Positions 10,316 through 45,400 are shown, numbered from the stretch's first letter. The stretch is DNA of 64,000 nucleotides from a virus (IMGVR_UViG_3300020470_000690:1494-65493), one strand, 5' to 3'. Numbers and translations: made by a program. The notes: a model not told the origin generated them from the letters alone.

Positions 10316-10563
10316 TGTTTCTCCTTTACTAATTGCAATAGTAGTCCTTTTATGTCAGACATATCTGATTTTAGATCATTCACTTCTTTTTGTAAAGAGG
10401 TGAAATTACGTTTAGATCGCTGCCTTTCATTATAAGACTGCATGTATTTAGAGTACTCGTCTGTATCGGTCATTACGATAGCATTGGACTCTGTATCCCT
10501 ACAGTATCCTTTGTTTTCATCACCCTCGACGGGTACAAATCGTTTTCCAGTAAAAGCAGTCAT
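10312..10563 (-). CDS. Conserved small phage protein downstream of the VrlC-like gene
   Basis: VEG...RD..SNAIV...EY..Y plus C-terminal coiled coil EVNDLKSDMSDIKGLL; its start shares base 10563 with the upstream stop. Confidence 0.75.
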   Translation of the reverse strand: MTAFTGKRFVPVEGDENKGYCRDTESNAIVMTDTDEYSKYMQSYNERQRSKRNFTSLQKEVNDLKSDMSDIKGLLLQLVKEKQ

Positions 10564-24487: not shown

Positions 24488-24494
24488 TATTTAT
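24488..24494 (-). promoter_or_regulatory. Late promoter (ATAAATA) overlapping the gp7 stop, upstream of the YHYH gene
   Basis: + strand TATTTAT 11 nt before the ATG at 24477. Confidence 0.55.
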
Positions 24495-27400
24495 TGGAAT
24501 ATTTGAGTTGGTGAGAAGTTAGAAATAACTGTTGCACCAGTCTGTACCGAGAGGATTACAGAGTTAGAGTAAACAGGTGAAGCACCAGCAGCGGTTATTG
24601 CTACACGGAACTCATCACCATCATCTGCCTGTTCAGCAGAAGCAGTAGTGTAAACACTATTTGTAGCACCTGTTATGTTTGCCCATGTGGTCTCACCATA
24701 CTGCTTACGCTGCCACTGGTAGTTCAGAGGAGTAGTTCCTACAGAACCATCAGATGAAAGATTAAACGTAGCGAGTACGGTAAATGCAGCCATTTGACCT
24801 TGGTTAACGGTTACGTTGGATGGTTGGGCAGTGATAGTTATATAACCATCAACAATTACAATTGGGTTACCATCAGAGTCAGTACCCTCACCTGCGTAAG
24901 TATCATAACCACCGTTCATGGCAGGACCTTCAGGTGGAGTCCAATCATCCTCAACAGTGTTGTGGATGGTGACTTCTGGTTGTGCATAACCAACACCAGC
25001 AGTCTTAACATCAATCCTCAAGAGACCCATCAACGCACGTATGCGTCCATCAAATCCAGAAGATGATATGACATCAACGTTTGGACGTGAAGTATAACCA
25101 TCACCAGGAGAGGTGATAATTGCTGTTGTCATCTCACCAGAGGTTATCTCAGCAAGTGCTTCAGCACCACGACCCTTAACAGTTCCTGTGTACTCGAAGG
25201 TGATCAAAGAATTAGAAGACTCAATCAAAGCAACTTCACGATTCTCTCCTTCTCCATCGATTTGTAGGAGGTCACCTGCCTCAATCGGAGGTACGACTGT
25301 AGCAGCAATAACGTCTGCGTCAGAACCAATGTAGGAGAAAGCAACGAATGTTGATCCTGCACGAGGAACTTCAGCGAAGATAATACGTGAACCAACTAGT
25401 TCATAACCAACTCCAGGTTCCTGAATAACACCGTTTAGAGAAACAATAATGTTGTTCTCAGGAAGTATAGTACTAGAGCTAACACCTTCAGTTAGGGTTA
25501 GTGAGTAGAATCCACCTGCGTAACGTAAGTTAAAGGATGAACGTAAGGAATCAAACTCGAAGGATATATCATCCAACTGTCTAAGTTTACCAACGTAGTA
25601 TCCGATAAACTCAGAACCGATTGTTGGAGGTTCAGTGAACTGGATCTGATCAGAGAATGCTGTGTATGCTTGTGTACCACCTGGAGGTTGTAGAACACCA
25701 TTAGTGAATACCAATAGGTGTCCAGCAGGATCTGGGAAGTATGCTTCTCCGTTATTTGTAGTAAGTTTAAAGGATGTTTGTGAACCATCAAATCCTCTGA
25801 AGAACCTATCACAACGTCCAACAAGACCCTTAGATTGGGTGACACCAGCATACCAACCAGCATCAGACTTAATTGTAATATTGCTTGGGAAGTCTCCAAC
25901 AACATCTTCCAACCAAATTCTACCTGAATCACCAGTAACTGATTTACCAGAGACCTTACCATAAGAATTGTAGTTAGTGACTGTTACACTACTCATCTCA
26001 GCGAGGATAATTGGGAAGTTATTGAGGTTCTCAAACTTACCAATTGCAGTACCACCAGCGGCTAAATCCTGAGGATCAGGTGTAACTACCTCACCTTGAG
26101 AGTTAGTTCCATATGGTCTAAGGTTTGCAATCCAAATCTTATGTGGGATGTTAGGAGTAACACTATCATCAAATGCTTGATACTTAGTGACAACAGCAGT
26201 CCAACCTGGTTCCTTAATAGTAGTACCTGCGAGGAGGTAAACTACATCACCAGCAGTAAAGTTTCCTGCATACCCACCATCACGGATGATGTTATTTACA
26301 TCACATTCTATCTGTGATTCTGCATGTACATACTGGTTAAGAGTTAACTCTTCGAATCCAGTAGCAGTAATGTATGCTATATCAAGAATCTTATCAGTGA
26401 TAGAACCGTAGATAACGTCACCATCAACAAAGTCATCTGCGATGGTTTCGATATCAATCGTAATACGTCCACCACTATTACCTACAAGAGAACCAGCAGA
26501 GTTTTCGTACTTAACAATATCTGCCTCAGCACTATTTCCTTTGTTAAAGACCTTCTCATCTTGCTTAAATGCACCTCTAGAGGTGTTAATTAACATACGC
26601 TCAACACTAGTACCATTAACAGTATTAGTCTGACCACTATCTACACCCTCTAAAACATCATTGTCAGAGAATGATCCAGTCATATCCTCAACGTAGATCC
26701 AACCTTCGTCTCCACCATCACCAGTTAGAACAGAAGTCTGAACAATAGTACCATTGTTAGATGTAGAACCCTGTACTTGTACAGTTTCACCATTGGTAAA
26801 TCTACCAGATGCTGCGTCTACATTAAACTTCTTATAGAGTTTAACAATATTTGCTTCATTGTTCATTGTGCGAACAACTTCAGCAGAAGCATTAGAAGTA
26901 GATCCAACCAAATAATCAGCAGTGTTAAATCCAGCACTAATTGGTTGATTGTTATCTCTTACAGGAGCAACCATTGCTGGCATATTAATACCAGTACGTA
27001 CAACTGTCTGTAATCTTTGCTGACCTGTTAAATTTTTATCTAGTGCAAACTGTCTATATCTTGCATCATGACGCTTCTCACGAGTAATCTCAAAGAAGTC
27101 TGCCTCAGCATTAAGAACATAGTAGTATGTCTGATCCTGTAAATTAGGATCTAGATCCTGAGAAGCAGGAATATATGCAAGAACATCACCACGTGAGAAG
27201 AAGTTAGGCTTATGTATTGTTACAGTATTCTCTCTTCTCTCAAATCCAACCTCAATAGTTGGAGTTAATAGAATCAATTCTGGATCAGTGTTATAATCTT
27301 CACCTTCATCATATAGATTAGTCACATTAGTGATATCAGCACTATTGGTATAATCAATCTTATTAGTCGAAGGTGCTTGAGATCTATTCAGTGCATGATA

Positions 27401-30400
27401 TGCAAGGTTAATAGAACTATCAATTGTAAATTCTGTAGATTCTTTCTCATACTCAAATCTATTAGAAATAGCAGCAGTATTAGATGGTTCTAGATATAGA
27501 TCATATCCTGCCCACTGTGCATCATTGTTGTAGTCATATAAACCACGTTTAACATACTCACGTATACGTGTAACATAGAAGAGTAAGTGCTGTCTAACGA
27601 TATTCTCGAATGCTATGAAGTTACCTTCACCATCAAACCAAGAGTTAACCAACTTCAGCATACCTTGGTTACCACCTGTATTCAGGTCATACATCAAAGC
27701 AGTTACCATATTCTCAGCAAATGTTATATCTGCTGTAGTATCTGGATGGTTATTTTGAGTTCTCTCAAATGCCTTAGCAGTAATAGCATGATAATTAAAG
27801 AGTATATGACGTGCACAATGCTTATCGGATACTGAACCACCACCAATCGTAGTCAACAGTACATCAAAGAGTGTATCAACTGCTGATGTTACGTTATAGC
27901 ATGTATATAATTGATAATTATTGTTAAATCTCCATGGGAGTTCACGTTCTACAGCATCCAAGTGACTACCACCACCACCAGATGCTAGAGATATGGTTTG
28001 GATAACAATATCCATCAATCCTTCGATCTTATCTGCAACACCAACACAAGTAGTATTCCAATCACCATTCATAGCACCATTCTGATCGAAGGTGATACTA
28101 ACATCACGCATTACCATATCTGGAGCGTACTTAACTGGCCAAATATTTGGTAGAGTCTTACTAATAGTACCATCAGTTAGACTTGCAGGTGTAGCAATAG
28201 CATCAGTATACAGACCCATCAAAGATGTAATAGCAGATGCTACGTCAGCACACTTAGGATTATTAGTATCAGCAGTGATTACAAAATCACCAGAATTGTA
28301 AGGATAGAAGTCAAGATCAGCATAGAACTTCTGAGCGAAGGTATGACCACCTCTAGGATATGTCTTCTGAGCAGTATTACCATCCCTTGTACATGTGAAT
28401 GTAAAGGAGTTAGGTGCTAACTTACAAGTCGTTCCTGTTGACAATCCATGTGCACCAATTGTTAATGCTAGATATCCAGTTGCAGGATCGTAAGTAGCAT
28501 TAGTTGGAGTATATGTAACGATAGGTGAGTTACCAATATCGATAGTAATAGTACTACCAGACTTACCAACAATAGGAACAGGTCTATCGAATGCTGGATC
28601 CTTAGCACGAGGATATGTGTGGTTAGTAGAATAGTTATCCTGTTGACATGTGAATGTCAAAGAATTAGGTCTAACCATGACAGATTCACCTGCTTTATCA
28701 ACACAACCAGTAGCAATGCTAACCAGTGTATGAGTTGTTGTGTTGGTAGAAGGAACTGTATCTAATACCTGTACATCAAATGTATTTGCTGTGCAATTGG
28801 AAATTGTTAACCACTTACCAGATGCAGGGTCAGTAACTCTTGGATATGAATAGTTTCCACCACCCTGAGTACATGAGAATGTTAATCCACCATCAGCAAT
28901 CTTAACGTATTCGCCATTAGCAAATCCATGACCATTGATAGTAAGTGTAACGATACCTGTAGTGGGGTTGTAAGCGGCATCAGTAGGTGTTAAACCAAGT
29001 GTAGGACCTTGGAGACTATTAGACCCAATATCAAGTGCTAGGTTACCTGTACCAGCATCATAGGTAGCGTTGGTTACGTTAAAGTTAACCTCAGGAGTAG
29101 TTCCTATGTTAGCAGTAATCGTATCTGTTGTGTTAGAAATTATAGTTAACGTTGTTCCTGAAGCAGGATCAGTTGATCTTGGATATCCATGAGTAGTTGT
29201 ATTACCATCAAATTCACAAGAGAACTGTATTGCGTTGTTATCAAGTGTGAATGTATTGATATTAGCTTGCAATCCATGAGCAGAACCGAAGGTCAATGTT
29301 AGGTGACCAGTTAGAGGATCGTAGGTAGCATTTGTTGGTGTTAACTGAGATCCACCAGTTACATTAACTGAGTTAGATGCAGCAGATACAAATGTGTGTT
29401 CATAGTTACCACCAGTTACCAATGCACGGTCTGTAGCAGATACAAACTTATGAGCATAGTTACCACCAGTGATCAAGGCACCAGAAGCAGCACTTACAAA
29501 CGTATGAGCATATTGATCATTAGGACCAGAAGCACCGATATCAAGTGTAACTATACCTGCAGGATCCTGTCTCTTAATACCATTAGTGACAGCAGATACA
29601 AACTCATGAGTATAGTCACCACCTGTATGTACAGCACCTGTAGATGCAGATACAAATGAGTGAGCATAGTAACCACCACTTATCAGAGCACCAGAATCGG
29701 CAGACTTAAATCCATGCCATGAGGTGTTAGATGAAGTACCAACATTCATTGTAATCCATCCGTTCTGTTTCTGTATAACACCTCTGTGGATGCTATTAGC
29801 AAGAGCAGACTGGAATACGTGTGTAGTAGTATTAGTGGAAGGAATCTTCTGTAGTAACTGTACACTGAATGTGTTAGTAGTTACATCAGAAACTGGAATA
29901 TAGTTGTTATGTGCCCAGTCACGTTGTTGTGAAAGACCATTAGCGTCAGCAGATACAAAGTTGTGTGTATATGTACCACCAGATGTAACTGCATTAGCAG
30001 CAGCAGAAACGAATGTATGTGATGTAGTGTTAGCAGAAGTACCAACCCATACGCTGATTGTAGTATCTGTAACAGCAACAATCTTAGCAGCACCGTTATA
30101 TACTGGATCAGCACCACCAGCGGCATTTGCAGCTGCTCTTGGATATGTGTGGTTGGTAGCATTGCTGTCCTTATTACATGTGAAAGTAATAGAGTTTGCA
30201 GCAATTCTTACAGAGTCACCAGATGTCTGGATGCAGTTAGCAGCAGCACTTACAAAGGTATGAGGATTAGTATTAGTAGAAGGTGCAGTAGTTAGAACTT
30301 TAACATCGATGTAATCTGTTCCTGCTTCTCTAATCTCCATCCAACGACCACTGAAGGGGTCTCTAGTTTGGATACCATTAGATGTAGCAGATACGAATAC

Positions 30401-33400
30401 GTGAGTAGAAGTATTAGACTGAGGTATTGAGTTTAGAACTTGTACATCAAATCCACTAGCAGTAGCATTAGAGATCTGTACCCACTTACCGCTCATTGGG
30501 TCATCTGCCCTAGGATAAGAATGGTTAGTTTGATCTCCGTCTAGACCACAAGTAAATGTCAAGGAGTTGTCAGCAAACTTAACCCAATCTCCATTGGTTA
30601 GGTTATGTGCAGCAGTGGTATTGATATGTAAAATACCTGTCTGTGGATCATGTGTAGTACCAGTAGTTGCTGTGTGACTAATAGTAGAAGGTCTTGGATA
30701 TGTCTTCTGTGCACTACCACCATCTAATGTACATGTAAATGTCAGTGCATTATCAGCAATCTTAATATGCTCACCTTGTGTCAGAGTATGACCAGCAATG
30801 GTCAATCTCATGATACCTGTTGTTGGATTATAGTCAGCGTTGGTAGGTGTTAAAGTTTCACCTGCACGGAAACTATGAGCACCAATAGTCAAGTCCATAA
30901 CACCTGTTACTGGTGAGTAAGCAGCAGCAGTAGGAGTCCATTGCTTCTCTATTGACTGACCAACATGAACTTGGAATGTATTTGTTTGTGTATTAAATAC
31001 AGGGATCCACTTATCAGCAACAGGATCATCATGTCTTGGATAAGCATGAGTTGTATCATAATTATCCATCGAGCAAGTAAACTTGATCGACTCAGGTGCA
31101 AACTTAACCATTGCACCATCACCAAATCCATGGTTAGCAACAGTACATTCCATAATACCAGCAGCAGCATCATATGTTGCAGCAGTAATAGTAAATGTAT
31201 CAGTAATATTTCTTGGATATGCGTGGTCTGAACCCTGACTATCTTCACCACATCTAAAGGTTACAGCACCGTCTTCGATCCAAATGGTATCACCATTCTG
31301 CATACCGTGATCGTTAACGGTAAGAGTCATCTTACCAGTATTAGGATCGTAAGCAGCGTTAGTAGGTGTTAGATCAGTAGCAGCAGCAAAGGTGTGAGCA
31401 TAGTTATCGTTAGGACCAGATACTCCGACTTGGATATCAAATGTATCTGTACCTGCATTAAGTACAGGTAACCACTCATCATAAACTGGGTCAGATGTTC
31501 TAGGATATGAGTGCTTAGTAGCATTACCATCTTTAGTGCACTTAAAGTCAATAGCCTCAGTACATACCCTAACGTAATCACCAGCATGAGTCAGGCAGTT
31601 AGTTACTGCATTGACAAATGTATGCTCAGTCTGGTTGGAAGATACACCAACATTAACATCAAATGTATTCTGAGTTACATTAGTAACATGTAACCACTTA
31701 TCATATGCATAGTCTTCTCCACCAGGAGCAGAAGAGTTGTATGCTCTAGGATAAGCATGGTTGGTTGTATGACCATCCATACCACATGTGAATACTAATC
31801 CAAATTGATTAATCTTAACTCTGTCATCATTCTGGAATCCATGGTTAGCAAGACTAATAGTCATTACACCAGTAGCAGGTGCATATGCAGCAGCAGTTGG
31901 AGTATGAGTAGTCTGTGCTTTAAATCCATGACTAGGAATAGTCAATGTCATAACACCTGTTGTAGGTGTATATGCAGCATTGGTTATATCATAGGTGTCT
32001 AAACCAATCTTATCGATTGTTATAGCAGTATTATATCCTGCATCAGGACCACTAGGACCAGAAGCACGAGGATATGCATGGTCAGTCGCATGACTGTCCA
32101 TTGCACAAGTAAAGGTTAATGCATTAGTACCTAACTTAACAGTCTCTCCTGCTCTGAAGGTATGTGCACCGATGTTGATATCAAGAACACCAGTATTAGG
32201 AACAAACTTAGCATCATGTACATCAAAGTTTGTAATACCAGTAGTACCAACGTTAACAGTAACAGTAGTATCAGTTACACCTACAATCTCAATTGGCTCG
32301 TCATGTACTGGGTCTGTAATTCTTGGATAGGTGTGATTAGTAGCACCATTATCCATCGCACAAGTAAATGTGAGTGAATTAGGTTCGATTTTTAGGTTAG
32401 TTCCAACCTTGAGGTCGTGAACTCCCACAGTCATTATGAGGTTACCAGTGTTCGGCTCGTAACTAATTGCTGTGGGAGTAAATTTCTTGATCCTTGAGAC
32501 ACCAACATTGACTGTGAATGTGTCAGTTGTCTTAGAAATTATAGGCAACCACTGATTACTTGTCTGATCTGTAGTCCTAGGATAGGTGTGATTGCTGTAA
32601 TGATTGTCCATTGAGCAAGTAAATGTCAATGAATTATCAGCAATATTGATCTTATTTCCTATATCAAATCCATGTCCAGCAACTGTTAGAGTCAATAAAC
32701 CAGTACCAGCATCATAAGAAGCATCAGTAGCAGTGTGCTGAGTAGAGGCAACAGATACAATAGGTATAGCAGTGTCAAATGCAGGGTCTCTACCATAGTT
32801 AAGTGCAAGAGACTCATTCCTCATCACCTGGATGGCGAGATCTCTGGCATAATTAGTGATCCAAGTTGCTTCAGTGTTATGTGTTAGACCTTCATTGACA
32901 TAGTATTCAGCAGCATGGAAGACCTTGTTGTTACCACCATGACGGAGGTTCCAGCACATAGCATCCAAGAAGTCAGTTAAGTCATGGACACAATTGATGT
33001 TACCACCAGGAATGTTAAGTGAAGGATATTGTACTAAAGCAGCAGCAATAGACTCTTCAGCAATCAAACGAATGTTTCTTTCGATGATATCAGCAGCGTT
33101 AATGAATCTGTCCTTAACAGCATTACGCTCATAGGACTCAACATCAACCTTATCAAGAGACTCATCACCACCTGCAGGTGTAGTATCATCGTCAGCTGCA
33201 GGATCTGGGTCAAAGATATAGAGATTCTCACGACCAAATGCATTACGCATGGTCATTATTGCCATTTCAGTAGTAAGTTTAAGGACACTGATAGCAGCAG
33301 CATCTTCACCAGGTGCTACACCGACATTAACTGTGATATTACCAGTCTGTCTCTTCAGTCCATTGGTCGCAAATGACACAAATGTGTGAGCATTTGTATT

Positions 33401-36400
33401 TGTGGAAGGAGTTGTGGTTAATACTTGTATATCAAAGGTGTTTAACTGTACATTTGATATCGGTAACCATGCTTTGTATGCAGGGTCTTGTGGTCTTGGA
33501 TAAGTCTTAGTGACTGCACCAGATCCTGTATCACAACTCATTGATAATGCGTTCTCATCGAGCATTACATAGTCATTTGCCTTAGTAATACCACTAGCAG
33601 TAGCAGAAACAAAGGTATGAACAGCAACGTTAGTAGATGGAATCTCTTTTAGTACCTGAACATCAAAAGTATTATTAGTTACGTTAAGTACAGGCAACCA
33701 AGAGTTGTATGCAGGGTCAGTTGACCTTGGATATGTATGATTAGAAAGGTCACCATCTAAATTACAGGTGAATGTTAGTGAATTTCCAGCAATTTTAACA
33801 CTATCACCAGCAACGAAACCATGTCCAGCAACTGTTAGTGTCATAATACCTGTATTAGGATTATATGCAGCGTCAGTTGCGGTATGAGTTGACTCACCAG
33901 TGAATCCATGACCATTCTGGGTGATCGTTACGATACCAGTATTAGGATCATATGTTGCACCTGTTGGTGTAGAAGTAGTAACACCAACATCAGTAATTTT
34001 TACAGAGGTATTATAGACAGGATCACTCTGACGAGGGTAAGAATGCTCTGTAGCATAGTCATCTCTATCACAAGTAAAGGTTAAAGCACCATCTCTAAAC
34101 CTAATAGAAGTACCAGGTTGCAATGTGTGAGCACCAACGTTCATCACTAGGTCACCTGTTACTGAATTATAGTCAGCATTGGAGACATTGTAGTTAACTA
34201 TCGGTGAAGCACCAACATTAACAGTGATTGTGGAGATTGTACTCGAAGTAATAGCAATAGATTTACCATATGCAGGGTCACCTTTTCTTGGATACTTGTG
34301 CTTCGAAGCATGATCATCCATTGAGCAGGTGAATGTCAATGATTCTTCTGCAATAGTAATGGTATTTGCAGTAGTTAATCCATGATTAGGTATGGTAATA
34401 ACTAAATTACCATCTCCAGGAGTGTAAACTACGTTAGATGGAGTGTGATTACCACTACCATTGTCTGTTATAGCATTAGTAGCAGCAGTAACGAAGGTAT
34501 GACCGTAGTTACCACCAGTGTAAATAGCGTCAAGTTCTGATCTTACATACTGATGAGTATGCTGACGACCATTTAATTGGATAAGAGACTTATCTTCCTG
34601 GTTAAGATACAGATTAGCAGCATCCCAAGTCTTAGAGTTACCACCCTTCCTTAGGTCATGTGCGACTGCATTTAGAATATCTAATACATCATCAACACAA
34701 TTCTGAGCACCATCAGGAACACCGAAGTTAAGATACTTCGATAGGTCATTCATTGTATGAACTGCTTCCCAAGCAATGACATTAGCATTACGCTCAAGCA
34801 TATCAGCAGCATCTAACAACCTATCATTATCGGTTCTTTGGGCATTATAACCTTCAGAGTCGATAGTAATGGTAGCATCTCTGTATACAGTCAGTTCTGT
34901 ATACTCATTAACATAATAATCATCTTGATACTCGGATGATACACCAAGTTCAGCAGCAGTACTACCCTTAGTTACTAGAGTGTTGTTGACCGCATGCTTA
35001 CAAAGCTTAGCAACATGGTTATATACATCTATTACAGCACTTAACTCATTATCAATAGAGTAAAGTTCACTATTAGCATTCATGAACTTAGCTGTGACGT
35101 TCCTGATCGCAGAATTACCACCAGTAACTAGATCAGCAATGACAGCTGGAAGTATATAAGTCTTTATCTCATGAGTACACTTATTGGGGTTCGAATTGGG
35201 GTTTGTATAGAAATCATATACAGTACCATTAATATCCTTCGTATATGTTGCTTCTAACCAACCTACTGCTTCAGCAGCAATTACATCACGGTTCTTCCAA
35301 ATTAAATCACCAGCGTCTCTAAATCTCTGTCCAGTAGGTCCAATAATATCACCTACCTCATCAGCAAGAGCAGAAATTTCATCCTGAATGGCTTGAGATA
35401 TAGGTGAAGAGAAGTTATTAGGTATACGAAGTATGTCAGTAAACTTAGTAGGATTACCATCACTATCAACACCATAGTTCTCAAGATCTGTACTTGTAGT
35501 AGTCAGAACATAGTGACAAATAGGTGCTAGTTCTCTATATGTGTAAATTGACTGTAGTACTTCATTAGCAATATGCTCAAGACCCTCATAAGCAGTTAGA
35601 TAAGATCTCGCAGCAAGTGTACTATTGTAGTTACCACCATAACGTATATCATCAATAATACCTTTTAAGATATGTTCTTTTGTATCCCTTAAACAGAATG
35701 TAGTACCCTGTTGAGGACCAACACCATCAGCGGTGTCACCTGGCATCAACAGATCAGGATACTTAGCCTTCATCTTATTAACTGCTGTTTCAGCAATCCA
35801 TGCTCTATTAAGTTCGAGCATATCAGCAGCCTTACGATGCTCATCTCTAGAAAGCTGAACATCCTCAATAATTATTTCCTTAGTGGCATAATTAACCTTC
35901 TTAGCTGCAGCAGCAGAGTTTGTCGTTCCAGTAAAGGTTGCATAAACATCCTTATCACTCATGATGATAGGATGCTCATTACTCATAGAGAATGAGATAT
36001 TATCATTAGTGCTAAAGATAACTGGAGGAGTAAATGTTGCTGTGTAGTTAGATACACCCTTAGTGATAACAAAGTTATCAATATGACCTTGATAGAAGTT
36101 GGCACCTGCTTGGTCAGCACCAATGGTCATCTTCCTCTCAAAATAATTATTGGTGTCAGTGTAATCAGATCCTACCTGAACACCACCAACCCACAATTTA
36201 GTAATACCAGAAGTCTTAGATACTGCTACGTGAGTCCATGTACCAGCACTAATTCCATGAGAACCACTGATACGATCAGCGTTATCATAGGCAAGTTTGA
36301 TACTACCACCATCAAGATATAGACTTAAAGATCCAGTCTCACTAAGTCCACTTGTACGGAAGTCAAACAGATACTGTCCACCAGTTACTGCCTTGGCCTT

Positions 36401-39400
36401 GATCCACATCTCTATAGTAAAGTTATCAGTACCAAATGCATTTACATCAGATAGATCATGAGTAAGATATGCTTGTGATTCTAATAATAGAGAGTTAGTT
36501 CCACTACGCTTATCAAGTGAAGTTAATGTTGCTTTCGCTGGATATACAGTAAAGGAATTTGGTACTGCACTTACAAAGGTGTGAGCATAATCACCACCAG
36601 TAATAATAGCATCTTCACCACGTACAAAAGTGTGTAAAGTAGTGTTAGTAGAAGGTTGTGTACTTAAGACCTGAACAATAATAACACCACCATCTTGCTT
36701 CGTAATATTATTAGAAGTTGCACTTACAAAAGTGTGAACTGAGGTATCGGGAGAAACACCAATCTGAACACCAATAGTATTATTATCAACAACTGAAATA
36801 GGTAACCACTGATAACTTGCTGGATCAGTTGTTCTAGGATAAGTATGCTGAGTAGCATTATTATCATTAGCACATGTGAAGGTTAATGAATTATCAGCAA
36901 TCTTGATCATCTCACCATTCGAGAATCCATGATTAGCAATGGTAAGATTTAAAGTTCCCTTAGTAGGAAGATATGATGCACCAGTAATTGAGTAAGTACT
37001 TGATGTAATACTATCAATGTTTACTGAGGTATTATAGAATGGGTCAGAATTTCTTGGATAAGCATGCTCTGTTTGGTTACCATCTTGATCACAAGTGAAT
37101 ACTAATGACTGTGGCTTAAATCTAATCTTCTCACCAACATTAAGATTGTTAGGTCCAATGGTAATTGCCATTACACCTGTATCTGGTTGATAATCAACAC
37201 CAGTTGGTGTGTAATGCTTAAGTGGGGATGAACCAACGTTTACAGTAAATGTACTTGCTGTTGTCTTAATGATAGGTAATCTAACATTGTTAGCAACAGG
37301 GTCAGTAAGTCTTGGATAATCATGCTGAGTAGCATTAGCATCCATACCACAAGTAAATTTAATTGCATTTGCAGCAATAGAAACTTCATTACCTGTGGAG
37401 AATCCATGAGCAGCAACTGTTAAAGTAAGATGACCAGTAGCAGCATCATAGGTTGCGTTTGTTGGTGTAACGGTAACGTTAGAAGCACCAGAAACGTTTG
37501 TAATTCTTGAGTTAGTAATATACTCTCTATTCTGGAATGAACCAGTTAGAGTATTAGTATACAGCCAACGTAGTCCAGAGTTAGCACCCTTACATGAGAA
37601 ATTAGCACCAGACTTATGACCCTTAACTGTGTCACCAGGAGTGAAGAATCCAAGTCCACCTCTATCCTTATAAGCAAACTTATAAACCCTTATGTTCTCA
37701 CCTTCCTCGTAAGTACCATCGGTAACAGTAGCGAGTGAATTGATATATGCAAGACCACCACCCTCAGATACTGAATTAGCAGTAGCAGATACAAATGTGT
37801 GTGTATAGTTACCACCACTCTGAATACCGTTAGGTGTAGCAGATACGAAGGTGTGTGCATTGGTGTTAGTAACTGCACCCTGTCCACCGTTAACGTTAAC
37901 AGTAATAGTTGTCTCACTAGCAGCAGTAATTTCTACAGCAGTGTCATATGCATAATCTTCACCATCGCTAGTATTTGCTCCAGTTGCACGAGGATAAGAT
38001 CCATTTCCAACAGTACCACCCTGATCACAACTAAAGGTTAATGATCCAGTAGCAATCTTAATACTTTCTCCAACTGCTAAGGTGTGAGCACCAATGGTCA
38101 ATACTAAATCACCACCAACAGGATCGTAAGTTGCATTCGTTACTGTGTGGTTAACAATAGGTGATGCACCGACGTTAACAGTAATAGTTGTAGCACCTAC
38201 AGCATCAATTGCAATCTGCTGGTTGTAAGTTGGGTCACTAGAACGAGGATATGTCTTATTGGCAGTATTGCCATCCATCGCACAAGTGAATGTTAATGAA
38301 TTAGGTTCTATCCTAACAGTATCATTAGTTGTTAAAGTATGTGATCCAATGGTTAGAACTAAGTCACCAGTGGCAGCAGTATATGATGCAGCAGTTGGTG
38401 TAAACTGAGCACCTGTGAATGAAGTAGTTGCAATATTTGCTAATGTGTCAATAGCAGTTGCTACGTTTGCACAATTAGTTCCACCTTGGTTACTACCTGA
38501 AGAGTAATCAGGGTCATAGTAATGTGCAGTAGAAGAACTGTCTAAGTAAGGTGCAGAATATGTTGTAGGATCATTCAGGTTATAACCAGCAGTATTAAGT
38601 GTCTGGTCATACATGATATTTCTCATTGCATTCTTACAGAGATCCTTAGCAGCATTAAATGCTGTAATTGCTTCTTGTGTCTCTGGAAGACCTATGAATA
38701 CACCGTCAGTATTAAAGAACTTCTTAACAAACTCAACCATGTAGTAGTTGCCATCACCATCTAGGTCATCAGCAATAGCATCAATGAAGTAACCAGTGTC
38801 ACGAGTACACTTAGTTTCTAATGTAGTCTGTGCTGCAGGTTGTGAAAGATCAATTAGATCAGATAGAGATGCAGTTGTTATTACCTCTGAAACATTAGTC
38901 CAAAGAGTGTTCAGTGCTGCTGTAACATCAGCACAATTATTAGCACCATAATTGGTGGAGTTAGAACCAGAAGTACCGTAATTATCTCCTGGAGATGGGT
39001 CAGCAGTAATTCCTGATCCACCAGAACCGCCTGTAGATTGCTCATTATACTTCGTATATGAAACAGAATCGATTGTCTCAGAACCACTTAATGTGTTAGT
39101 AAGTGCTTCGACCATATGATCATATGCCTTACCATAACCATAATTAATCTCATTAGCTTGAGAATTAACATACTGGAAAGTAGTACCATCTGGGAAGAAC
39201 ATCTGACACAATTTACGTGTATAGACTGTTCCACCCCATCCAGTATCTCTGGATAGAGCATCGATGAAATATCCAAGGTCTCTCTTACACTTAGCAGCAC
39301 TAGGAATAGTAGTACCAGGATATTGAGTAATCATCTCATCATAAGACTTAGCGATGATCCACTCTCTATTCTTCTGGATCAAACGATAAGCATCCTTAAA

Positions 39401-42400
39401 TCTACCCATCTGGGCAACTTGGTTGTCACCAGTGTGATAGAAACCAGGATAGTCAATTGCTATCTGAGAAACAGCAAAATCTATAATTTCTTGTCTATTA
39501 TTTCTTATACTTCTAGCAGCATCCTTATATCTGTTCAGTGCGTCAGTTACAGGGTTACCATAAGTTACGTTGATAGAACGGATAACATCATTAACAGCAA
39601 GTGTACCACCACTTAAATTGTTATATTCGATTTCTGTAGAACGAACTTCTTCATAATCCAAGAAATCAGCGTTAATACGGTTTGCTGAATTGTTTAACTC
39701 AACAGGACTAATTGTAGTCTCTGAAATGTTATCTAGGATAACATTCTGGTTAGTAAGTGAAATAAGACGCTCAAAGACTAATCCAAAGAATGAAGAACCT
39801 TTGTTGATGATTAAAGTGTCTACAACGTCTCCGACTTTAGGATCACCAGATATAACTCCATTAACAGCATTTTGGTTAGTTACTGTTTCTCCATCTATGA
39901 AATCGGGGGTATTTTTCTTAACATAGTAAAGAACAGGTGGATTAGCACTTGCATCGAGTCTAACAACTTGTGCTTGAGCACCTGAGACTCCACCAGTGAT
40001 TATTTGGTCTTCTTCGAATGCAACTGCTGCTGCCATGTTAATGGAGGTAACTGGATCTCTATAAGGTGAAATTCCAGTTATTTTAGCTGCGATCTTCGAA
40101 GATGCAGAATATATGAGATCATTAAGTAAAATATTGTAAGCACCAGTTTCGAACTCTGCAGTACCAGAAGTCTTAGAAAGTACAAGACTAGAATCGAGAT
40201 TACCGTCTAAATCGAGGTTTGTCTCTTCTACAATTGCTGTATCGCCACCTAGATCAACTTTAGTGACTGTTTCGCCAAATTCGAATATAGTTGACTGATT
40301 AACATCATCAATGCTTCCAATGAATGCACTGAACCCAGTTCTGCTTACATCGACTCTAGCGTTGTTTACAAACGTTGTACCGATGATTTCGATGATATCA
40401 ATACTACTTGTACTAGTATCAATGACTTTAGCACTTGAGTTAACGTTATTAAACTTAGCTGTAATGATATCACCGATTTGTGGGAAAATACCGCCGATCT
40501 GAGTTAAATTAAGTCTCTTAATCGGTAAAACGGTAATATCAACATTTCTGTAGATAACTTTAGAATCAGGACGTGGTGCTTCAGCAAATACGATCTGATT
40601 ACCAACAATTTGATATGCTTCACCAGGAGATTGGATAACACCGTTTAAGGTGACCAACATCTGATTTTCTTTAATAATAATCTGTTCACCTTCTACAGTA
40701 AGGTTAAATGCCTTTGTAGCACCATCAAACTGATCAGAAATGTTATCAATCTTCTTAACGATAGAAGTTAGAATTTCCTCGGAGTTTGTTAGTCTTTTCT
40801 TCCTGAATAGAACTTCAGAGTTGTTAAATGTCGAATATATGGGTTGAGCAGCACCAAATGATGTAATTTGGTTAACATTAGTATATTCGTCAATATTAAC
40901 CTGTTTGGTGAACTCAGTACCAATTCTTCGGCCAGAGATGTCCTTACCACCCGTTAATTCCAACTGACCAAACATATTAAAGCCAGCTGGGTGGTTATTC
41001 TCTAATATCTGCTTCTTCCAACGGTTGATCGGAATTTGAGACTTAATAACGTATGAGAAGTTCTGATAGAAGTAAGAATCCTGAATCTTCTGTACAATCT
41101 CAGAAGGCTTACCAACGTCATCAATAAACCTACCAGAGGTCTTAGTGATAGCGTCAATGTTCAGAATACCCTTAGCAATCTGTACATTATCGATAATACC
41201 AGATGCTCTAGAAATTACACCCTGAACCTTGCCACCCTCGACAAAAACACCCTTAGGATTAACAACCTTAAGGATCTTAGGTCCAATCTGCCAACCATCG
41301 TTAGTTGATACAGTACCGAAGGCATTTGCCAAATCATATGACTCACCTTGGAATACTTCTTCAGATTCTAAGAATCTAGAGGTTTCTACGACTGCTTCTG
41401 CTTTACCACCAAATACCTCGGTTAATAGCACCTGTCTACCATTACCTTGTGTTAAGAAGGTGATATAGTTACCTGATTCAGCATCAGCAGGTGTTAAAGC
41501 AAATCTCAACTGGTCACTTTCTAAACCAGCAACATTACCAGCAATAGCATAGTAGGTGGTTGTAGATGACAATGAAGTCAAACCAACACTACTTGGTTTT
41601 GGTAATTCACCAACATCACTACCAATATCTTCTGCACGGAACTGAATAGCAGCACCAGTGGTTATACCATGAGGGAAGTTAAACTGTAGATAATTAAGGT
41701 CTAAGTTAACAACATATGTAAATTCTGACTTAAGTGTAACTGATGGTTGTGAGCTATATCCTGCACCTGGGTCTTTAACGATAATCTCAGATAATCTGTT
41801 GTTTTTAACAACTGCTTCTGCATCAGCACCTGTTCCACCACCACCAGCGATGACTACAACTGGTGCAGAGGTATATCCAGCACCTGGGTCAGTTATCTTG
41901 ATCTCAGAGAGTATTGAGGTGTTAAAGAGTTGTAAGTTGACTGGGAATGCAATCTCAGGACGTAAAGTATAGTCATGAGAGTAACCATAACCAAATTCAT
42001 TGTTTTTAAGAGTTTTGATCTTACCAATCTCTGTACCAGTCAAGAATACAGAAGCACCACTACCTTCATCAGGTATAACGACCTCTAAATCACCACCAGA
42101 ACCAGATAAGGTAGATCCTAGAATTCCTGTAATACCATCAACGTCAATCGATCCAAATGTGTATCCTTTACCTGGATCAGTTAATGTAACATCAGTTATA
42201 GTACCAGAACTAGTTTCTGCATCAATTTCGACGGTAATGATGCAAAGACCACCCTCACCATCACCTATAATAGGAACTTGAGTGTATACGCCAGGTGCAT
42301 ACTCAGTACCACCATTATTGATCTTAATCTTCTCAATCTTACGATCTGAAGCAATATCAGAGATAATTGGTAGCTTCTTATAGAATCCACCTGGAGAGAT

Positions 42401-45400
42401 CAACTTAATAGTGTTAATCGGACCAATTGCCTTAGTTGATGTAGTTGAGTAGTAAGAATTTGGATTATCTTGATCATCTACTCCGATTTCAGCATTATTA
42501 AATTCTGGTTCGATTTCTAGTGGGAATCTGAATTCAGTCTCACTTATAATCTCACCGATCTTAAATGTTCCGTCATATGGTGTCTTAATAACGTCAATGA
42601 AGGAGTTCTCACCAACTGGGGAGTTGGAGGATAATGTTCGGCTTGGATCAAAATAGTACGTGATATTTGTAACTTCACCACCGATTGTAAAGTTGACTAT
42701 AGGGGTCTCAGTGTTAGAAGACAATCCAGGAGTTCCAGACCTCTCAATAACGTTAAATGAGTATTCTAGTTTAAACTGGTTGTCTTGAGAGAAGGATAAG
42801 AAGTATCCAAGGTTAGAAGCATCACTCATGTCAAAGACATAAGAATGGTTTCTTACCAACATAAGAGTTGGGTGCTTAGATGATATCTTAACGTTAAATA
42901 TCGCATTATTATAGAATGCTGGTTCACTGTCAGCAGCAGCTCTCATTCTATAAGTAAAGTCTCTAGAAGAGAAGACTTCTTCCACAAAGAATGAACCATT
43001 AAACTGAGCAGTAGTAAATCCTTCTACAAAGAGGATATCTGCTGCTTTAAATTTATGAGCAGATAATGCCTGACAGTAAATAAGGTCAGTACGAGCATTA
43101 GCACTCCTAATAATATCCTTGTCTAGATTTACAACATATTCTATCTTCTTAACAGTACTTACACCATTAATCTGAGCAATCTTAGGATCACCTTCTTTAG
43201 GACCAGTAGTTACAGATCCACCAAGTGAAATAACGTCACCAACAATAAAGTCAGATCCAGTATAAACCTCTACAATCTTAACCCTATAATCCTCAGCATC
43301 ATATGGACGGAATCTAGCATAAGAAGATATAGCATCAGACTGAGACTGCCATGTCCAAACTACAGTACCATCAGTAGCAGTACCACTAGTATGAGTAGGA
43401 GCAACAGATCCTGTTACACCAGCAGTTGTACACTTATAATTCTGTCTACCAAAGTAAACTAAGTCATTAAGAGCATAAGATTTAGTTGCTTGCCATAGTG
43501 GTTCAGTAGGAGTTGGCCATGGATGATCTCTTAGGTCAACTTCTATAGGACCAGCAGCACTAATGTATTGCCATATAACTGAACCGTCAGTTACGTTACC
43601 AATCTCATGGGTAGGAGCAGTAGCACCAGAAGTAGCAGTATTAGTTGCTTTATAGATCTTACCATCACTCCAAACCTGATCATCTACTGTATATGCTGTA
43701 GCAGTTAACCATTCGGCCTGTGCCCGTTCTGGGTGGAAAATTACGTCTTCGATTATATTTTCTTCACCTAGATCATTCTTAAAGAGATCGGTATCATTAA
43801 AGTTACCAAACATCTTACCGATCTTATACTTACTACCCAATCCTGGGTAATCTAAAGTACCAGTTGGAACCTCAACGATAGTACCATATGCCTGTACAAT
43901 ACCCTGAGAGTTATACTGTTGTAGTATAGATCCCTTAGTAAACTTGATATCTTGGTTAAATGTAAATTCTAATACGTTATCAATCTTCTGGAATCCAGCA
44001 TCTCTAACATAGTACTTCGGTATAACAACAGCACTAACCTTGAGCTTAACTCCAAGTGGTGAAGGTACTGTAGATGTCTTAGAAGCAAATTGATGAGTAT
44101 TATTAGTAAATGTGTAAGTTCCTGGTGTTAGAGTTGATATGGTATCTGACATATCAAGAATCTGTAAACCAGAAGAACCTTCTGCCCAAACTGTAATTAC
44201 AGGATTAGTAAGATTATTAATATTGATTCCACTAGTCTCTGTAAATGTTAATGCCTTAGTATAGACTGTTGATGGGAATGCACTGTAAGCACCTCTCTTA
44301 TCATGCAATCTATCAAATTTGATTAGATTGATTTGAGAATCATCAGACGTAATAGCAAATTGAGTTGTTGGTAGTGTAAATGAAGCACCAGTAAAGACTG
44401 CATTAGGTTCGATAACTAAATCATCGATACTACCCAAGAAGCAGTTACCAGTAGCAGGTGTAGTTTTATTAGCACCAATATAAACGTCATTAAGACCAAT
44501 TTCAGTTGCAACAGTTGCTGTACATACCTGAATACCATCAAAATAAACAGAATAGGTGTAAGAACCAAGAGAAGGTGTCTCTTTAACTACTGCCCAATGA
44601 TGGAATGCACTATCTTGTAAAGTTGTCCAATAAGTAGATCCAACAGAAGAAACAGTTGATCCACCACCACCCTGAGGTGCGATGGTCATTTCGATCTTAC
44701 CTAAGTTGCCACTAGCAGCATTACCATCTACTGTTACTACTATACTGTTTCCTAAAGCATCATCAATAGTAATCATCTCAACTTTAGGGTTGTTAGAAGC
44801 ATGAGATGCTTCCATCAAACTCCATACAGATGTAGTCCAATTAGTTGTTATGCCTGCACCAGCATGCTTCATATAAGCTGGACCACCAGAGAACTTAAGT
44901 GACCCACCACCAAACTTATAGTCTGCATTATTGTGCAAGACTTTAGTCGCATCTGAGAAGGTAGTAGTTACATTTGCTTGCTTACTACTATCTTCTATAA
45001 GACCACTAAAATCTACTGCAGAGAGAATAGCACCTGTGGCAGTTCCACTACCACCGAAGTTGGTATCTAAGGTTACTGTAGTTCCAGTTGCTGTTAAAAC
45101 TTTTATACCAGCGGCAAGAGTCACAGTTCCACCACCGCTGGTTATTGAGACAATATCACCAGTAGCAAGACTAGTAGCATTACTTACATTAGTAATAGTT
45201 GCAGCACCAGCAGCAATATCACCAGCAAAGGAGATAGGTGAAGCATCAAAACGATTTACTACTGTCTGGATTGGTTTCTGCTTATTAGCAGCGATGATAA
45301 CGTCACCAGAGTTATCTACAACATGATTCCTTGTCTTAAATCCAATATCATCAGTATCTTTAATATTAGTACTCTGAAGAAGGGTTCCATCGTACTTAAA

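What the first reader, a model, noticed from the sequence alone, without database searches (positions are those of the whole stretch)
28352..32791. Matryoshka protein: 14 copies of one domain recursively inserted into each other, 10 levels deep
Seen in sequence: the unit is a = TPTxAxYxPxTGxxxLTIxxHG, b = V/IKIAxNSLTFTCxxD...HxYPR, c = DP...WLPI...TFxVxVG, d = HTFVSA..N.I. The copies are not tandem. A new copy starts inside the previous one, and the unfinished halves resume later in reverse order, like brackets. Parse: R[D1[D2[D3[D4[D5][D6[D7[D8[D9[D10]]]]]]]]] with R also containing P1[P2][P3]. Counts balance exactly (14 a, 14 YPR, 14 d). At least five insertion points are used: after H(G/S)Fxx, after YPR, in the middle of c, between c and d, and inside d. 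The pile-up of closers is visible as ...HGFKSA..GGYYAHSFVSA..GGDYTHEFVSA...HTFVSA..GGNYAHKFVSA..GGNYEHTFVSA (about 29360-29720). Inference: the chain folds as a branched tree or out-and-back stalk projecting from the baseplate, with the innermost domain (D10, about 30360-30680) at the tip. Outer domains could only complete folding after everything inside them is translated. I know of no described protein with self-nesting this deep.
Basis: partly seen in the sequence, partly recalled or inferred. Interest (0 to 1): 0.95.

Follow-up and report, generated by a model that had tools for sequence, protein, structure and literature searches.

The report
Self-nested barrels in cyanophage baseplate protein
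A giant tail-baseplate protein of a marine cyanobacterial virus holds 14 copies of one small barrel-shaped domain plugged into each other's loops up to nine deep, a rare way to build a protein and deeper than any published case I could find.

Summary
Window 28352-32791 (- strand) encodes aa 6387-7866 of a 9152-aa gp7-position baseplate protein of a T4-like cyanophage. A profile of the ~108-aa domain splits this stretch into fragments whose profile coordinates are complementary and close last-in-first-out: 15 of 15 continuation fragments fit. All 17 split copies of the protein, rejoined in a script, give one end-to-end profile match. Relatives about 65% identical (62% over the whole nest) lack exactly one 530-aa five-level sub-tree.

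AlphaFold2 folds one two-level unit at pLDDT 94.5. The whole 1067-aa nest reaches only 71.8. The distant opening and closing pieces, folded as two chains, gave weak support (0.55 against 0.00).

- D4 closes before D6 opens, so the depth is 9 with the circularly permuted root, or 8 without it, not 10.
- I see four insertion points, not five.

Recursive self-insertion is already described for the Si3 region of cyanobacterial RNA polymerase, at six levels. This case uses another fold and goes deeper.

This scan has noted the same architecture before on other cyanophage DNA.

The parts
24491..51949 (-). Giant ORF of 9152 aa in the gp7 position of the baseplate module
   Evidence: PHROG 701 and 2885. 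Pfam Baseplate_wedge 27.4 bits against a cut-off of 27. Baseplate genes on both sides.
32744..32791 (-). R c1: first half of segment c of the circularly permuted root copy (aa 6387-6402)
Evidence: R rejoined as ab+c1+c2d gives 95.7 bits over profile positions 2-104.
32483..32743 (-). D1 a-b-c (aa 6403-6489)
   Evidence: profile 2-82
32222..32482 (-). D2 a-b-c (aa 6490-6576)
   Evidence: profile 3-89
31997..32221 (-). D3 a-b-c1 (aa 6577-6651)
   Evidence: profile 5-77
31913..31996 (-). D4 a (aa 6652-6679)
   Evidence: profile 2-29
31580..31912 (-). D5, intact copy (aa 6680-6790)
   Evidence: profile 1-109. Forms the inner barrel of the AlphaFold2 model.
31373..31579 (-). D4 b-c-d (aa 6791-6859); closes D4 before D6 opens
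   Evidence: profile 28-98. Rejoined D4 gives 122.1 bits over profile 3-98.
31202..31372 (-). D6 a-b (aa 6860-6916)
   Evidence: profile 3-57
30941..31201 (-). D7 a-b-c (aa 6917-7003)
   Evidence: profile 2-85
30857..30940 (-). D8 a (aa 7004-7031)
   Evidence: profile 3-31
30683..30856 (-). D9 a-b (aa 7032-7089)
   Evidence: profile 2-57
30362..30682 (-). D10, intact innermost copy (aa 7090-7196)
   Evidence: profile 2-108; 142.2 bits
30218..30361 (-). D9 c-d (aa 7197-7244)
   Evidence: profile 57-109. Rejoined D9 gives 141.4 bits.
29975..30217 (-). D8 b-c-d (aa 7245-7325)
   Evidence: profile 28-108. Rejoined D8 gives 118.1 bits.
29927..29974 (-). D7 d (aa 7326-7341)
   Evidence: Rejoined D7 gives 123.6 bits. 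The pLDDT block holding this strand is 81.
29765..29926 (-). D6 c-d (aa 7342-7395)
   Evidence: profile 57-103. Rejoined D6 gives 129.8 bits.
29675..29764 (-). D3 c2-d (aa 7396-7425)
   Evidence: profile 76-102. Rejoined D3 gives 86.2 bits. Poorly modelled, pLDDT about 38.
29621..29674 (-). D2 d (aa 7426-7443)
   Evidence: Rejoined D2 gives 109.2 bits.
29552..29620 (-). D1 d (aa 7444-7466), 955 residues after the end of D1 c
   Evidence: profile 90-107. Rejoined D1 gives 139.1 bits. The pLDDT block holding this strand is 83.
29462..29551 (-). R c2-d (aa 7467-7496)
   Evidence: profile 87-108. Assigning it to R is an inference.
29408..29461 (-). Y d, placed before Y a (aa 7497-7514)
   Evidence: Rejoined Y gives 83.8 bits over profile 5-104. 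The assignment is an inference.
29081..29407 (-). Z: d followed directly by a-b-c, an uninterrupted circular permutant (aa 7515-7623)
   Evidence: Reordered Z gives 100.2 bits.
28997..29080 (-). Y a (aa 7624-7651)
   Evidence: Found only with the second profile.
28682..28996 (-). P2, intact copy inside Y (aa 7652-7756)
   Evidence: profile 2-110; 139.3 bits
28520..28681 (-). Y b-c (aa 7757-7810)
   Evidence: profile 29-82
28352..28519 (-). R a-b; the block ends at YPR (aa 7811-7866)
   Evidence: profile 2-61
37748..38410 (-). Cluster 1 of the same domain: 2 copies, abc[intact]d (aa 4514-4734)
36539..37477 (-). Cluster 2: 3 copies, abc[abc1[intact]c2d]d (aa 4825-5137)
33284..34564 (-). Cluster 3: 4 copies, with two d strands placed first (aa 5796-6222)

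Best explanation
The stretch is a block of 14 copies of one small, roughly 108-residue beta-barrel domain. The domain has no Pfam family. The protein is the giant gp7-position baseplate protein of a T4-like cyanophage.

The copies are not strung in a row. Each new copy sits in a loop of its host copy. The chain lays down the first strands of D1, D2, D3, D6, D7, D8 and D9, makes the complete D10, and then returns, adding the missing strands in the reverse order.

D3 carries two children, D4[D5] and D6[...D10]. The root R and the copies Y and Z are circular permutants.

Inferred, not shown:
- Every sub-tree starts and ends at one point, and two chain segments cross every joint. This should give a stiff, branched projection with both ends anchored at its base.
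- Whole sub-trees can be gained or lost in frame, as in the 530-residue difference from relatives.
- Outer barrels can be completed only after everything inside them has been made.
- The invariant Cys (segment b) and His (segment d), and the nearly invariant His (segment a), may form a site that clamps the late strand.
- The biological role is probably to set the reach or surface contacts of the baseplate.
For: Sequence grammar:
- 15 of 15 continuation fragments fit last-in-first-out, against 6 fitting and 10 not fitting under first-in-first-out.
- The seven closers after D10 stand in the one mirror order of 420 possible orders (my arithmetic).
- 17 of 17 split copies give a single end-to-end profile hit when rejoined: 83.8-141.4 bits, against 114.2-164.3 bits for the 6 intact copies. 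The profile had been built only from intact copies.

Comparison with relatives:
- 3 loci about 65% identical (62% over the whole nest), L021, L022 and L032, lack exactly D6-D10. This is 530 residues, between the end of D4 and D3 c2.
- Near-identical sequence is present in 8 of the 15 metagenome and IMG/VR contigs that match the sub-tree at 92-100%.

Structure prediction:
- AlphaFold2 on D4[D5] with 60 natural two-level units gave pLDDT 94.5 and pTM 0.82. The outer a hairpin scores 95-96.
- An independently predicted BFVD chunk of a 56%-identical protein superposes over 207 columns, TM 0.85.
- The whole nest has mean pLDDT 71.8, with 656 of 1067 residues at 70 or more. The pLDDT blocks holding the d strands of D7, D2 and D1 are 81, 72 and 83.

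Openers D1-D3 (aa 6400-6655) against closers (aa 7396-7466), folded as two chains:
- The verdict was weak support. The score was 0.55; the best of 3 controls was 0.00.
- The mark was reached by 58 of 80 solved complexes and by 2 of 110 mismatched pairs. At 0.60 or under it was reached by only 7 of those 80 solved complexes and by both mismatches that passed.
- The runs agree in at least 95% of their contacts, and the partner's pLDDT is at least 74.
- No solved relative is known by sequence.
- The openers' own pLDDT is 81 with the closers and 62 or 48 with unrelated partners.

Covariation learned from 264 intact copies:
- In 39 non-redundant a|bcd units the outer halves score like intact copies (-0.26 against 0.14).
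- They score above halves paired across units (-2.89, p 0.00035).
Against:
- The whole-nest model has pTM 0.33. D3 c2-d scores about 38 and D6 c-d about 59.
- The two-chain test gave only weak support.
- The covariation test shows no signal for the abc|d type, which is the type of D1, D2 and D7: 12 units, p 0.28-0.66. For a|bcd units, outer against inner is not significant (p 0.12).
- A similarity-profile matching of halves was inconclusive.
- Any d strand fits any a-b-c in the profile test, so assigning the three early closers to R, Y and Z rests on parsimony.
- A global stack parse instead closes cluster 3 with two of them, which would give depth 10.
- The oligomeric state is unknown.
- The tip D10 is the most conserved copy among near relatives (92.5-98.1%), not the most variable. 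This does not fit a simple receptor-binding tip.
Confidence: 0.8

Rival explanations
1. The a-b-c units are complete domains. The stacked 18-residue GGxYxHxFVSA units form a separate repeat structure of their own, and the balance of counts comes from how the units were duplicated.
For: - The closers form arrays with an 18-residue period: aa 7412/7430/7448 and 7482/7500/7518.
- The covariation test gives no signal for abc|d units.
- D3 c2-d and neighbouring closers have low to middling pLDDT in the whole-nest model.
Against: - It cannot explain splits after a, after b or in mid-c. There the returning piece carries b-c-d, c-d or c2-d, with exactly complementary profile coordinates.
- All 107 intact copies aligned carry the invariant His of d directly after c.
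- Rejoined D1, D2 and D7 score 12-22 bits above their a-b-c parts alone.
- Openers and closers raise each other's pLDDT in the two-chain fold (weak support).
Confidence: 0.07
2. The halves complement each other between chains. In a trimeric or otherwise oligomeric fibre, the returning strands of one chain complete barrels started by another chain (domain swapping).
For: - Many phage fibres are intertwined trimers (established knowledge, recalled).
- All predictions here were of single chains, so swapping was not tested.
- In Si3 some recursively inserted domains exchange elements (PMC11515920, passage read).
Against: - A strict last-in-first-out order is what a single chain needs. Swapping between chains would not require it.
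- The two-level unit folds as a monomer at pLDDT 94.5 and pTM 0.82.
- T4 gp7 is present as one chain per wedge (recalled, not tested here).
Confidence: 0.08
3. It is an assembly or annotation artefact: a chimeric repeat collapse, not a real protein.
For: Repeats can mislead assemblers.
Against: - The frame is open for 27.5 kb.
- The same nest stands at 92-100% identity in 3 IMG/VR contigs and 5 metagenome contigs.
- The copies are only about 40-50% identical to each other. That is too diverged for a repeat collapse.
Confidence: 0.01

Closest known systems
Si3 insertion of cyanobacterial RNA polymerase beta' (RpoC2): recursively inserted SBHM/HABAS domains
   Same: - Copies of one small beta fold are inserted into loops of other copies of the same fold.
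- Some copies are built from distant parts of the chain.
- The result is an elongated, flexible multi-domain body.
- It is described as eight domains in a six-level recursive architecture (PMC13114784) and as HABAS domains inserted into other HABAS domains (PMC11515920). A crystal structure exists (PMC10895346). I read passages of all three.
   Different: - The fold is different or unrelated. The Si3 chain 8emb_F appears only at Foldseek rank 42, E 0.13, probability 0.03, and no RNA polymerase chain is among the 50 best VIA rows.
- This case has 14 copies in one block, 23 in the protein, and 8-9 levels.
- It also shows four insertion loops, circular permutants and a virion protein as host.
Beta-barrel domain of phage endosialidases (PF12195) and the FCCH domain of ubiquitin-activating enzyme E1 (PF16190)
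   Same: - These give the best structural matches to the inner barrel of the model. Phi92 endosialidase 4hiz_A: Z 7.6, rmsd 2.2 A, 81 residues aligned. E1 4p22_B: Z 7.2, rmsd 2.6 A, 77 residues aligned.
- Sub-threshold Pfam hits point the same way: End_beta_barrel in 9 of 107 copies and E1_FCCH in 6 of 107.
- Both are themselves inserted domains with neighbouring ends (recalled).
   Different: - No copy reaches a curated Pfam cut-off; E1_FCCH scores 18.8 and 13 bits against 29.5.
- A Z under 8 may mean only a common arrangement.
- Those domains occur singly and are not nested in themselves.
- The conserved Cys/His/YPR motifs of this family are its own.
T4 gp7, the baseplate wedge initiator
   Same: - The gene lies between a phrog_219 wedge gene and further wedge genes.
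- Pfam Baseplate_wedge matches at aa 698-739.
- Homologues in BFVD are named 'Baseplate wedge initiator'.
   Different: - It is about nine times longer (T4 gp7 length recalled).
- No solved structure matches aa 1-1300 by sequence.
- The nested barrels, the helical domains, and the LamG and YHYH domains are additions.
Periplasmic adaptor proteins of efflux pumps (AcrA/MexA type), an out-and-back nested chain (recalled, not tested)
   Same: The chain runs out through several domains and returns through them, so each domain is built from an outgoing and a returning part.
   Different: Those proteins have four different folds and about three levels, not one fold recursively. No comparison was run here.

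Membership tests
Recursive self-insertion architecture (the kind described for RNA polymerase Si3) | A copy of a domain is interrupted by a complete copy of the same domain (A1-B-A2), and this is repeated over several levels | tested here: met
   15 of 15 continuation fragments fit last-in-first-out. 17 of 17 rejoined copies align end to end. A natural 530-residue sub-tree difference lies at bracket boundaries.
Recursive self-insertion architecture (the kind described for RNA polymerase Si3) | The separated halves form one folded domain in three dimensions | tested here: inconclusive
   The two-level unit has pLDDT 94.5 and pTM 0.82. The two-chain test gave weak support: 0.55 against a best control of 0.00. 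No coordinates or contacts could be read.
SBHM/HABAS fold of Si3 | Structural or sequence similarity to the hybrid-motif domains | tested here: inconclusive
   8emb_F appears only at Foldseek rank 42, E 0.13, probability 0.03. It is not among the 50 VIA rows shown. There is no PDB sequence hit.
T4 gp7-type baseplate wedge protein | Pfam Baseplate_wedge (PF23786) at or above the gathering score | tested here: met
   27.4 bits against a cut-off of 27, at aa 698-739, so only just met. PHROG 2885 'baseplate wedge subunit' scores 1069.6 bits.
T4 gp7-type baseplate wedge protein | Position in the baseplate gene module | tested here: met
   A PAAR gene (phrog_281), a wedge gene (phrog_219), this gene, then phrog_25852, phrog_677 (wedge to tail-fibre connector), phrog_22827/708 and phrog_438. 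Mapping these to T4 gene numbers is recalled.
T4 gp7-type baseplate wedge protein | Sequence match to solved T4 gp7 | tested here: inconclusive
   0 PDB sequences at E 0.01 or better for aa 1-1300. A profile or a fold comparison was not run.
Endosialidase beta-barrel (PF12195) / E1 FCCH (PF16190) | Pfam score at or above the curated cut-off | tested here: not met
   E1_FCCH scores 18.8 bits and 13 bits against 29.5. End_beta_barrel matches 9 of 107 copies only at E up to 1, best 0.006.
Endosialidase beta-barrel (PF12195) / E1 FCCH (PF16190) | Same fold | tested here: inconclusive
   Z 7.6 (rmsd 2.2, 81 aligned) and Z 7.2 (rmsd 2.6, 77 aligned) over model residues 28-140. No chain of 48161 reaches Z 8.

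The most novel reading that the evidence does not exclude
This would be the deepest recursive self-insertion described for any protein: nine levels of one fold, against six in the published extreme. The domain belongs to an unnamed beta-barrel family that tolerates insertion in four loops and also circular permutation. Whole sub-trees are gained and lost as units, so cyanophages can grow stiff, branched baseplate appendages from a single chain. If the global parse is right, the barrel trees also sit inside helical domains and inside cluster 3, which would give depth 10 or more.
Probability: 0.55. Interest if true: 0.8.

Novelty: new variant of a known kind. Interest (0 to 1): 0.7.

Why it matters
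Domain insertion is common, but deep recursion of one fold into itself is very rare. A 2026 survey of 2.7 million domains shows six levels as its most complex case (PMC13114784, passages read).

This family would extend that limit and offers many natural variants: 771 representative proteins, with units differing by whole sub-trees. These could be used to study:
- how a chain folds when a barrel must wait about 950 residues for its last strand;
- how such unfinished barrels stay soluble;
- whether nesting gives stiffer rods than tandem repeats.

For phage biology, it points to a modular way of changing the size and shape of the baseplate periphery in the most abundant marine myoviruses.

Tried and rejected
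1. Matching halves by their similarity profiles against 382 intact copies. The diagonal did not dominate; D4 and D8 ranked 5th to 9th. Inconclusive, and dominated by subfamily structure.

2. Alignments of the whole nest or of D6-D10 enriched with paralogues. MAFFT placed the parts of natural two-level units on the wrong copies, so I dropped them. I used A3 instead (57 rows, checked row by row). In A3 the c2-d pieces of 7 rows are still misplaced.

3. Covariation transfer for abc|d units: no signal.

4. Tip hypervariability: not seen. D10 is 92.5-98.1% identical to near relatives and D4 is 68.0-81.4%.

5. Automatic parsing of all 108 loci plus the window is noisy: 640 fragments fit and 417 do not under last-in-first-out, against 335 and 742 under first-in-first-out. 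Short diverged closers are missed, and one miss cascades. I therefore give no reliable depths for distant relatives. The parser's stack depth is 8 for L060, L076 and L084, with 1-3 mismatches.

6. Searches of solved structures found nothing clear.
   - PDB by sequence: 0 hits for the two-level profile and 0 for aa 1-1300.
   - Foldseek against PDB: 0 hits at E 0.001 or better.

7. Literature. Searches listed no paper on nested domains in cyanophage virion proteins. I read only the listings of those four searches. Those of PMC13114784 and PMC10895346 may hold the depth distribution and the Si3 topology.

8. Model coordinates are not given by the tools, so I could not check contact maps or overall shape.

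Full report
**What is there.** The finding lies inside one open reading frame, 24491..51949 on the - strand, 9152 aa. PHROG families 701 ('virion structural protein') and 2885 ('baseplate wedge subunit') match it strongly. Pfam gives only YHYH, Baseplate_wedge (27.4 bits, cut-off 27) and Laminin_G_3 above threshold, and nothing for the repeated domain. The neighbours are baseplate genes: a PAAR protein, a phrog_219 wedge subunit upstream, and further wedge and connector genes downstream. The nearest named records are T4-like cyanophages of Prochlorococcus and Synechococcus. The protein therefore sits in the gp7 position of a cyanomyovirus baseplate module. The finding's coordinates correspond to aa 6387-7866.

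**Check of the observation.**
- YPR occurs 24 times in the protein, 14 of them at aa 6456-7864.
- I built a profile from five uninterrupted copies and mapped it back. It gave 35 hits in four clusters: aa 4514-4734, 4825-5124, 5804-6206 and 6403-7871.
- Many hits are partial, and the partial hits pair up with complementary profile coordinates. Examples: 6652-6679 (profile 2-29) with 6789-6858 (28-98); 7032-7087 (2-57) with 7195-7247 (57-109); 7004-7032 (3-31) with 7243-7327 (28-108); 6860-6914 (3-57) with 7342-7388 (57-103); 6577-6654 (5-77) with 7399-7422 (76-102).
- A second profile, built from 331 intact copies of the window and 93 related loci, gave 43 fragments. 15 of 15 continuation fragments fit a last-in-first-out stack. 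A first-in-first-out rule fits 6 and fails 10.
- After the innermost copy the closers come as cd, bcd, d, cd, c2d, d, d. This is the single mirror image of the opener order among 7!/(2!·3!) = 420 possible orders (my arithmetic).

**Corrected parse.**
- R c1 [ D1 abc [ D2 abc [ D3 abc1 [ D4 a [D5] bcd ] [ D6 ab [ D7 abc [ D8 a [ D9 ab [D10] cd ] bcd ] d ] cd ] c2d ] d ] d ] R c2d, Y d, Z (d+abc), Y a [P2] Y bc, R ab.
- D4 is closed at aa 6859, before D6 opens at aa 6860.
- I see four split points (a|b, b|c, mid-c, c|d) and none inside d.
- The three 'surplus' closers (H of the HxF motif at aa 7482, 7500, 7518) precede three copies that lack a d after their c. The simplest reading is that R, Y and Z are circular permutants. 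Cluster 3 shows the same pattern, with two d strands first. This reading leaves no orphan piece in any of the 23 copies.
- That assignment rests on parsimony. A global stack parse instead lets two of these closers finish the two open copies of cluster 3, which would give depth 10.

**In-silico excision.** All 17 split copies of the protein were rejoined inside a script: 8 in the main nest, R, Y and Z, and 6 in clusters 1-3. Each gives one end-to-end hit to the profile of intact copies (profile positions 1-6 to 98-106 of 108). Scores are 83.8-141.4 bits, against 114.2-164.3 bits for the 6 intact copies of this protein. The first parts alone score 11.0-117.1 bits. It does not tell which d belongs to which a-b-c.

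**Relatives.**
- Scans of IMG/VR and metagenome contigs gave 108 loci. The D6-D10 sub-tree is found at 92-100% identity in 3 of 15 IMG/VR matches and in 5 of 15 metagenome matches, so it is not an assembly artefact.
- Three loci with about 65% identical flanks (62% over the whole nest; L021, L022, L032) lack exactly this sub-tree. With L021 as reference, the window's protein shows one insertion of 530 residues between the end of D4 and D3 c2. This is a natural excision at bracket boundaries.
- Two-level units of all four split types recur in the loci and the window: 134 a|bcd, 49 abc|d, 21 ab|cd and 19 abc1|c2d.
- The same grammar is visible in distant relatives, but my automatic parse there is noisy: 640 fragments fit and 417 do not, against 335 and 742 for first-in-first-out.
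- The family is small: 771 of 1.84 billion representative proteins at E 0.001 or better, 261 at 1e-30 or better.

**Structure prediction.**
- AlphaFold2 on D4[D5] (aa 6651-6858), with 60 non-redundant natural a|intact|bcd units, gave mean pLDDT 94.5 and pTM 0.82. The outer a hairpin scores 95-96. The outer b-c-d repeats the secondary-structure pattern of the inner copy.
- The inner copy (model residues 28-140) is a small beta-barrel. The best matches are the barrel domain of phi92 endosialidase (Z 7.6, rmsd 2.2 A, 81 aligned) and the FCCH domain of E1 (Z 7.2, rmsd 2.6 A, 77 aligned). No chain of 48161 reaches Z 8, and Foldseek finds nothing in PDB at E 0.001 or better.
- Sub-threshold Pfam hits point the same way: End_beta_barrel in 9 of 107 copies and E1_FCCH in 6 of 107.
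- In BFVD, an independently predicted chunk of a 56%-identical cyanophage protein superposes over 207 columns (TM 0.85, rmsd 2.8). Other hits are named 'Baseplate wedge initiator'.
- The whole nest (aa 6400-7466, 57 rows, alignment checked) gave mean pLDDT 71.8 and pTM 0.33, with 656 of 1067 residues at 70 or more. The pLDDT blocks holding the d strands of D7, D2 and D1 are 81, 72 and 83, and these strands are predicted as strands. D3 c2-d is poor, about 38, and the alignment was also faulty there.
- The tools give no coordinates, so I could not verify which strands pair or what shape the model has.

**Two-chain test.** Openers D1-D3 (aa 6400-6655) and closers (aa 7396-7466) were folded as two chains with alignments of orthologues.
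- The verdict was weak support: score 0.55, best of 3 controls 0.00.
- The mark was reached by 58 of 80 solved complexes and 2 of 110 mismatched pairs. At 0.60 or under it was reached by only 7 of those 80 and by both mismatches that passed.
- The runs agree in at least 95% of contacts, and the partner's pLDDT is at least 74.
- The openers' own pLDDT was 81 with the closers and 62 or 48 with unrelated partners. The closers' pLDDT was 75-76 with the openers and 33 with an unrelated chain.
- No solved relative exists by sequence, so a pass from memory is unlikely.

**Covariation.** Pair scores were learned from 264 intact copies that are not inside any two-level unit, and applied to the units.
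- In 39 non-redundant a|bcd units, outer a with outer bcd scores -0.26 and the inner copy 0.14. Outer a with inner bcd scores -1.67, inner a with outer bcd -3.36, and halves paired across units -2.89. The tests give p 0.00035 against shuffled units, 0.031 against inner a with outer bcd, and 0.12 against outer a with inner bcd.
- ab|cd (5 units) and abc1|c2d (7 units) go the same way, with p 0.016-0.055.
- abc|d (12 units) shows nothing.
- This is modest support, and none for the type that D1, D2 and D7 belong to.

**How it probably works (inference).**
- An insertable barrel has its two ends side by side, so each child hangs from a loop of its parent. The chain goes out through the first strands of each level and comes back through the last strands.
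- Two chain segments cross every joint, and the whole block enters and leaves at one point (the b|c junction of R).
- That should give a stiff, branched body with four tips (D5, D10, Z, P2) on the baseplate periphery.
- Sub-trees can be added or lost in frame without disturbing the host copies. The 530-residue difference shows that this happens.
- Outer barrels cannot be finished until the inner ones are made. D1 waits 955 residues for its d strand.
- In 107 intact copies, Cys in b and His in d are invariant and His in a is present in at least 90%. These three residues lie on three different segments and could form a clamp, perhaps with a metal. This is not tested.
- A role in reach or surface contact is likely from the position in the baseplate and from the LamG, YHYH and weak CBM5/12 domains elsewhere in the protein. 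However, the tip D10 is the most conserved copy among near relatives, so I do not claim a receptor-binding tip.

**Comparison with what is known.**
- Recursive insertion of one fold into itself is in print for the Si3 region of cyanobacterial RNA polymerase beta'. It has eight to nine SBHM/HABAS domains, some built from distant chain segments. A survey of 2.7 million domains calls it a six-level recursive architecture and uses it as its example of greatest complexity (PMC13114784, PMC10895346, PMC11515920; passages read; supplements closed).
- The present family is not detectably related to that fold.
- My four searches for a description of nested domains in cyanophage virion proteins listed nothing relevant.
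- I therefore class this as a new variant of a known kind: another fold, deeper, with four insertion loops and circular permutation, in a virion protein.

**Earlier notes of this scan.**
- Notes on this window pointed me to the c1 piece of R at 32791. They also proposed the permutation and the Cys/His site, which I had partly reached on my own and then tested as far as described above.
- Look-ups made after my analysis show that the scan has reported the same architecture on other cyanophage DNA several times, with the same closest known case. These are unchecked AI notes and do not count as independent evidence.

Noticed in passing
window 35663-35836 (- strand, aa 5372-5429); also aa 4186-4229: Pfam Phycobilisome (PF00502) matches helical stretches between the barrel clusters: 26.5 bits against a cut-off of 22.2, and 19.1 bits. 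Earlier notes of this scan treat these as phycobiliprotein-like domains. Similar helical segments separate all four barrel clusters.
   Followed up: no
window 28325-28351 (- strand, aa 7867-7875): Directly after the last YPR of the block comes a further d-like motif (GGH.F...). No copy needs it in my parse. It may be a vestige or the start of the next helical domain.
   Followed up: no
window 47318-47758 (aa 1398-1544) and 36062-36454 (aa 5166-5296): The same protein carries a YHYH domain (99.1 bits) and a Laminin_G_3/LamG domain (55.6 bits). A weak CBM_5_12 hit lies at aa 2746-2776.
   Followed up: no
L021, L022, L032 against window 29765-31372: Relatives with about 65% identical flanks lack the whole five-level sub-tree D6-D10 (530 residues). 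The junctions fall in the similar tails after d strands, which suggests loss or gain by recombination between closer-coding repeats.
   Followed up: partly
window 31373-31996 (D4) against 30362-30682 (D10): Among near relatives, D4 is the most diverged copy (68.0-81.4% identity). The innermost D10 is the most conserved (92.5-98.1%).
   Followed up: partly
window 2857-10011 and 10563-17927 (- strand): Two further very large structural genes lie downstream: 2384 aa (phrog_697) and 2454 aa (phrog_358, function unknown).
   Followed up: no
L060, L076, L084 (IMG/VR loci): Other cyanophage lineages show stack depths of 8 with the same parser, with 1-3 mismatches. Deep nesting is therefore a family trait, not peculiar to this phage.
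   Followed up: partly
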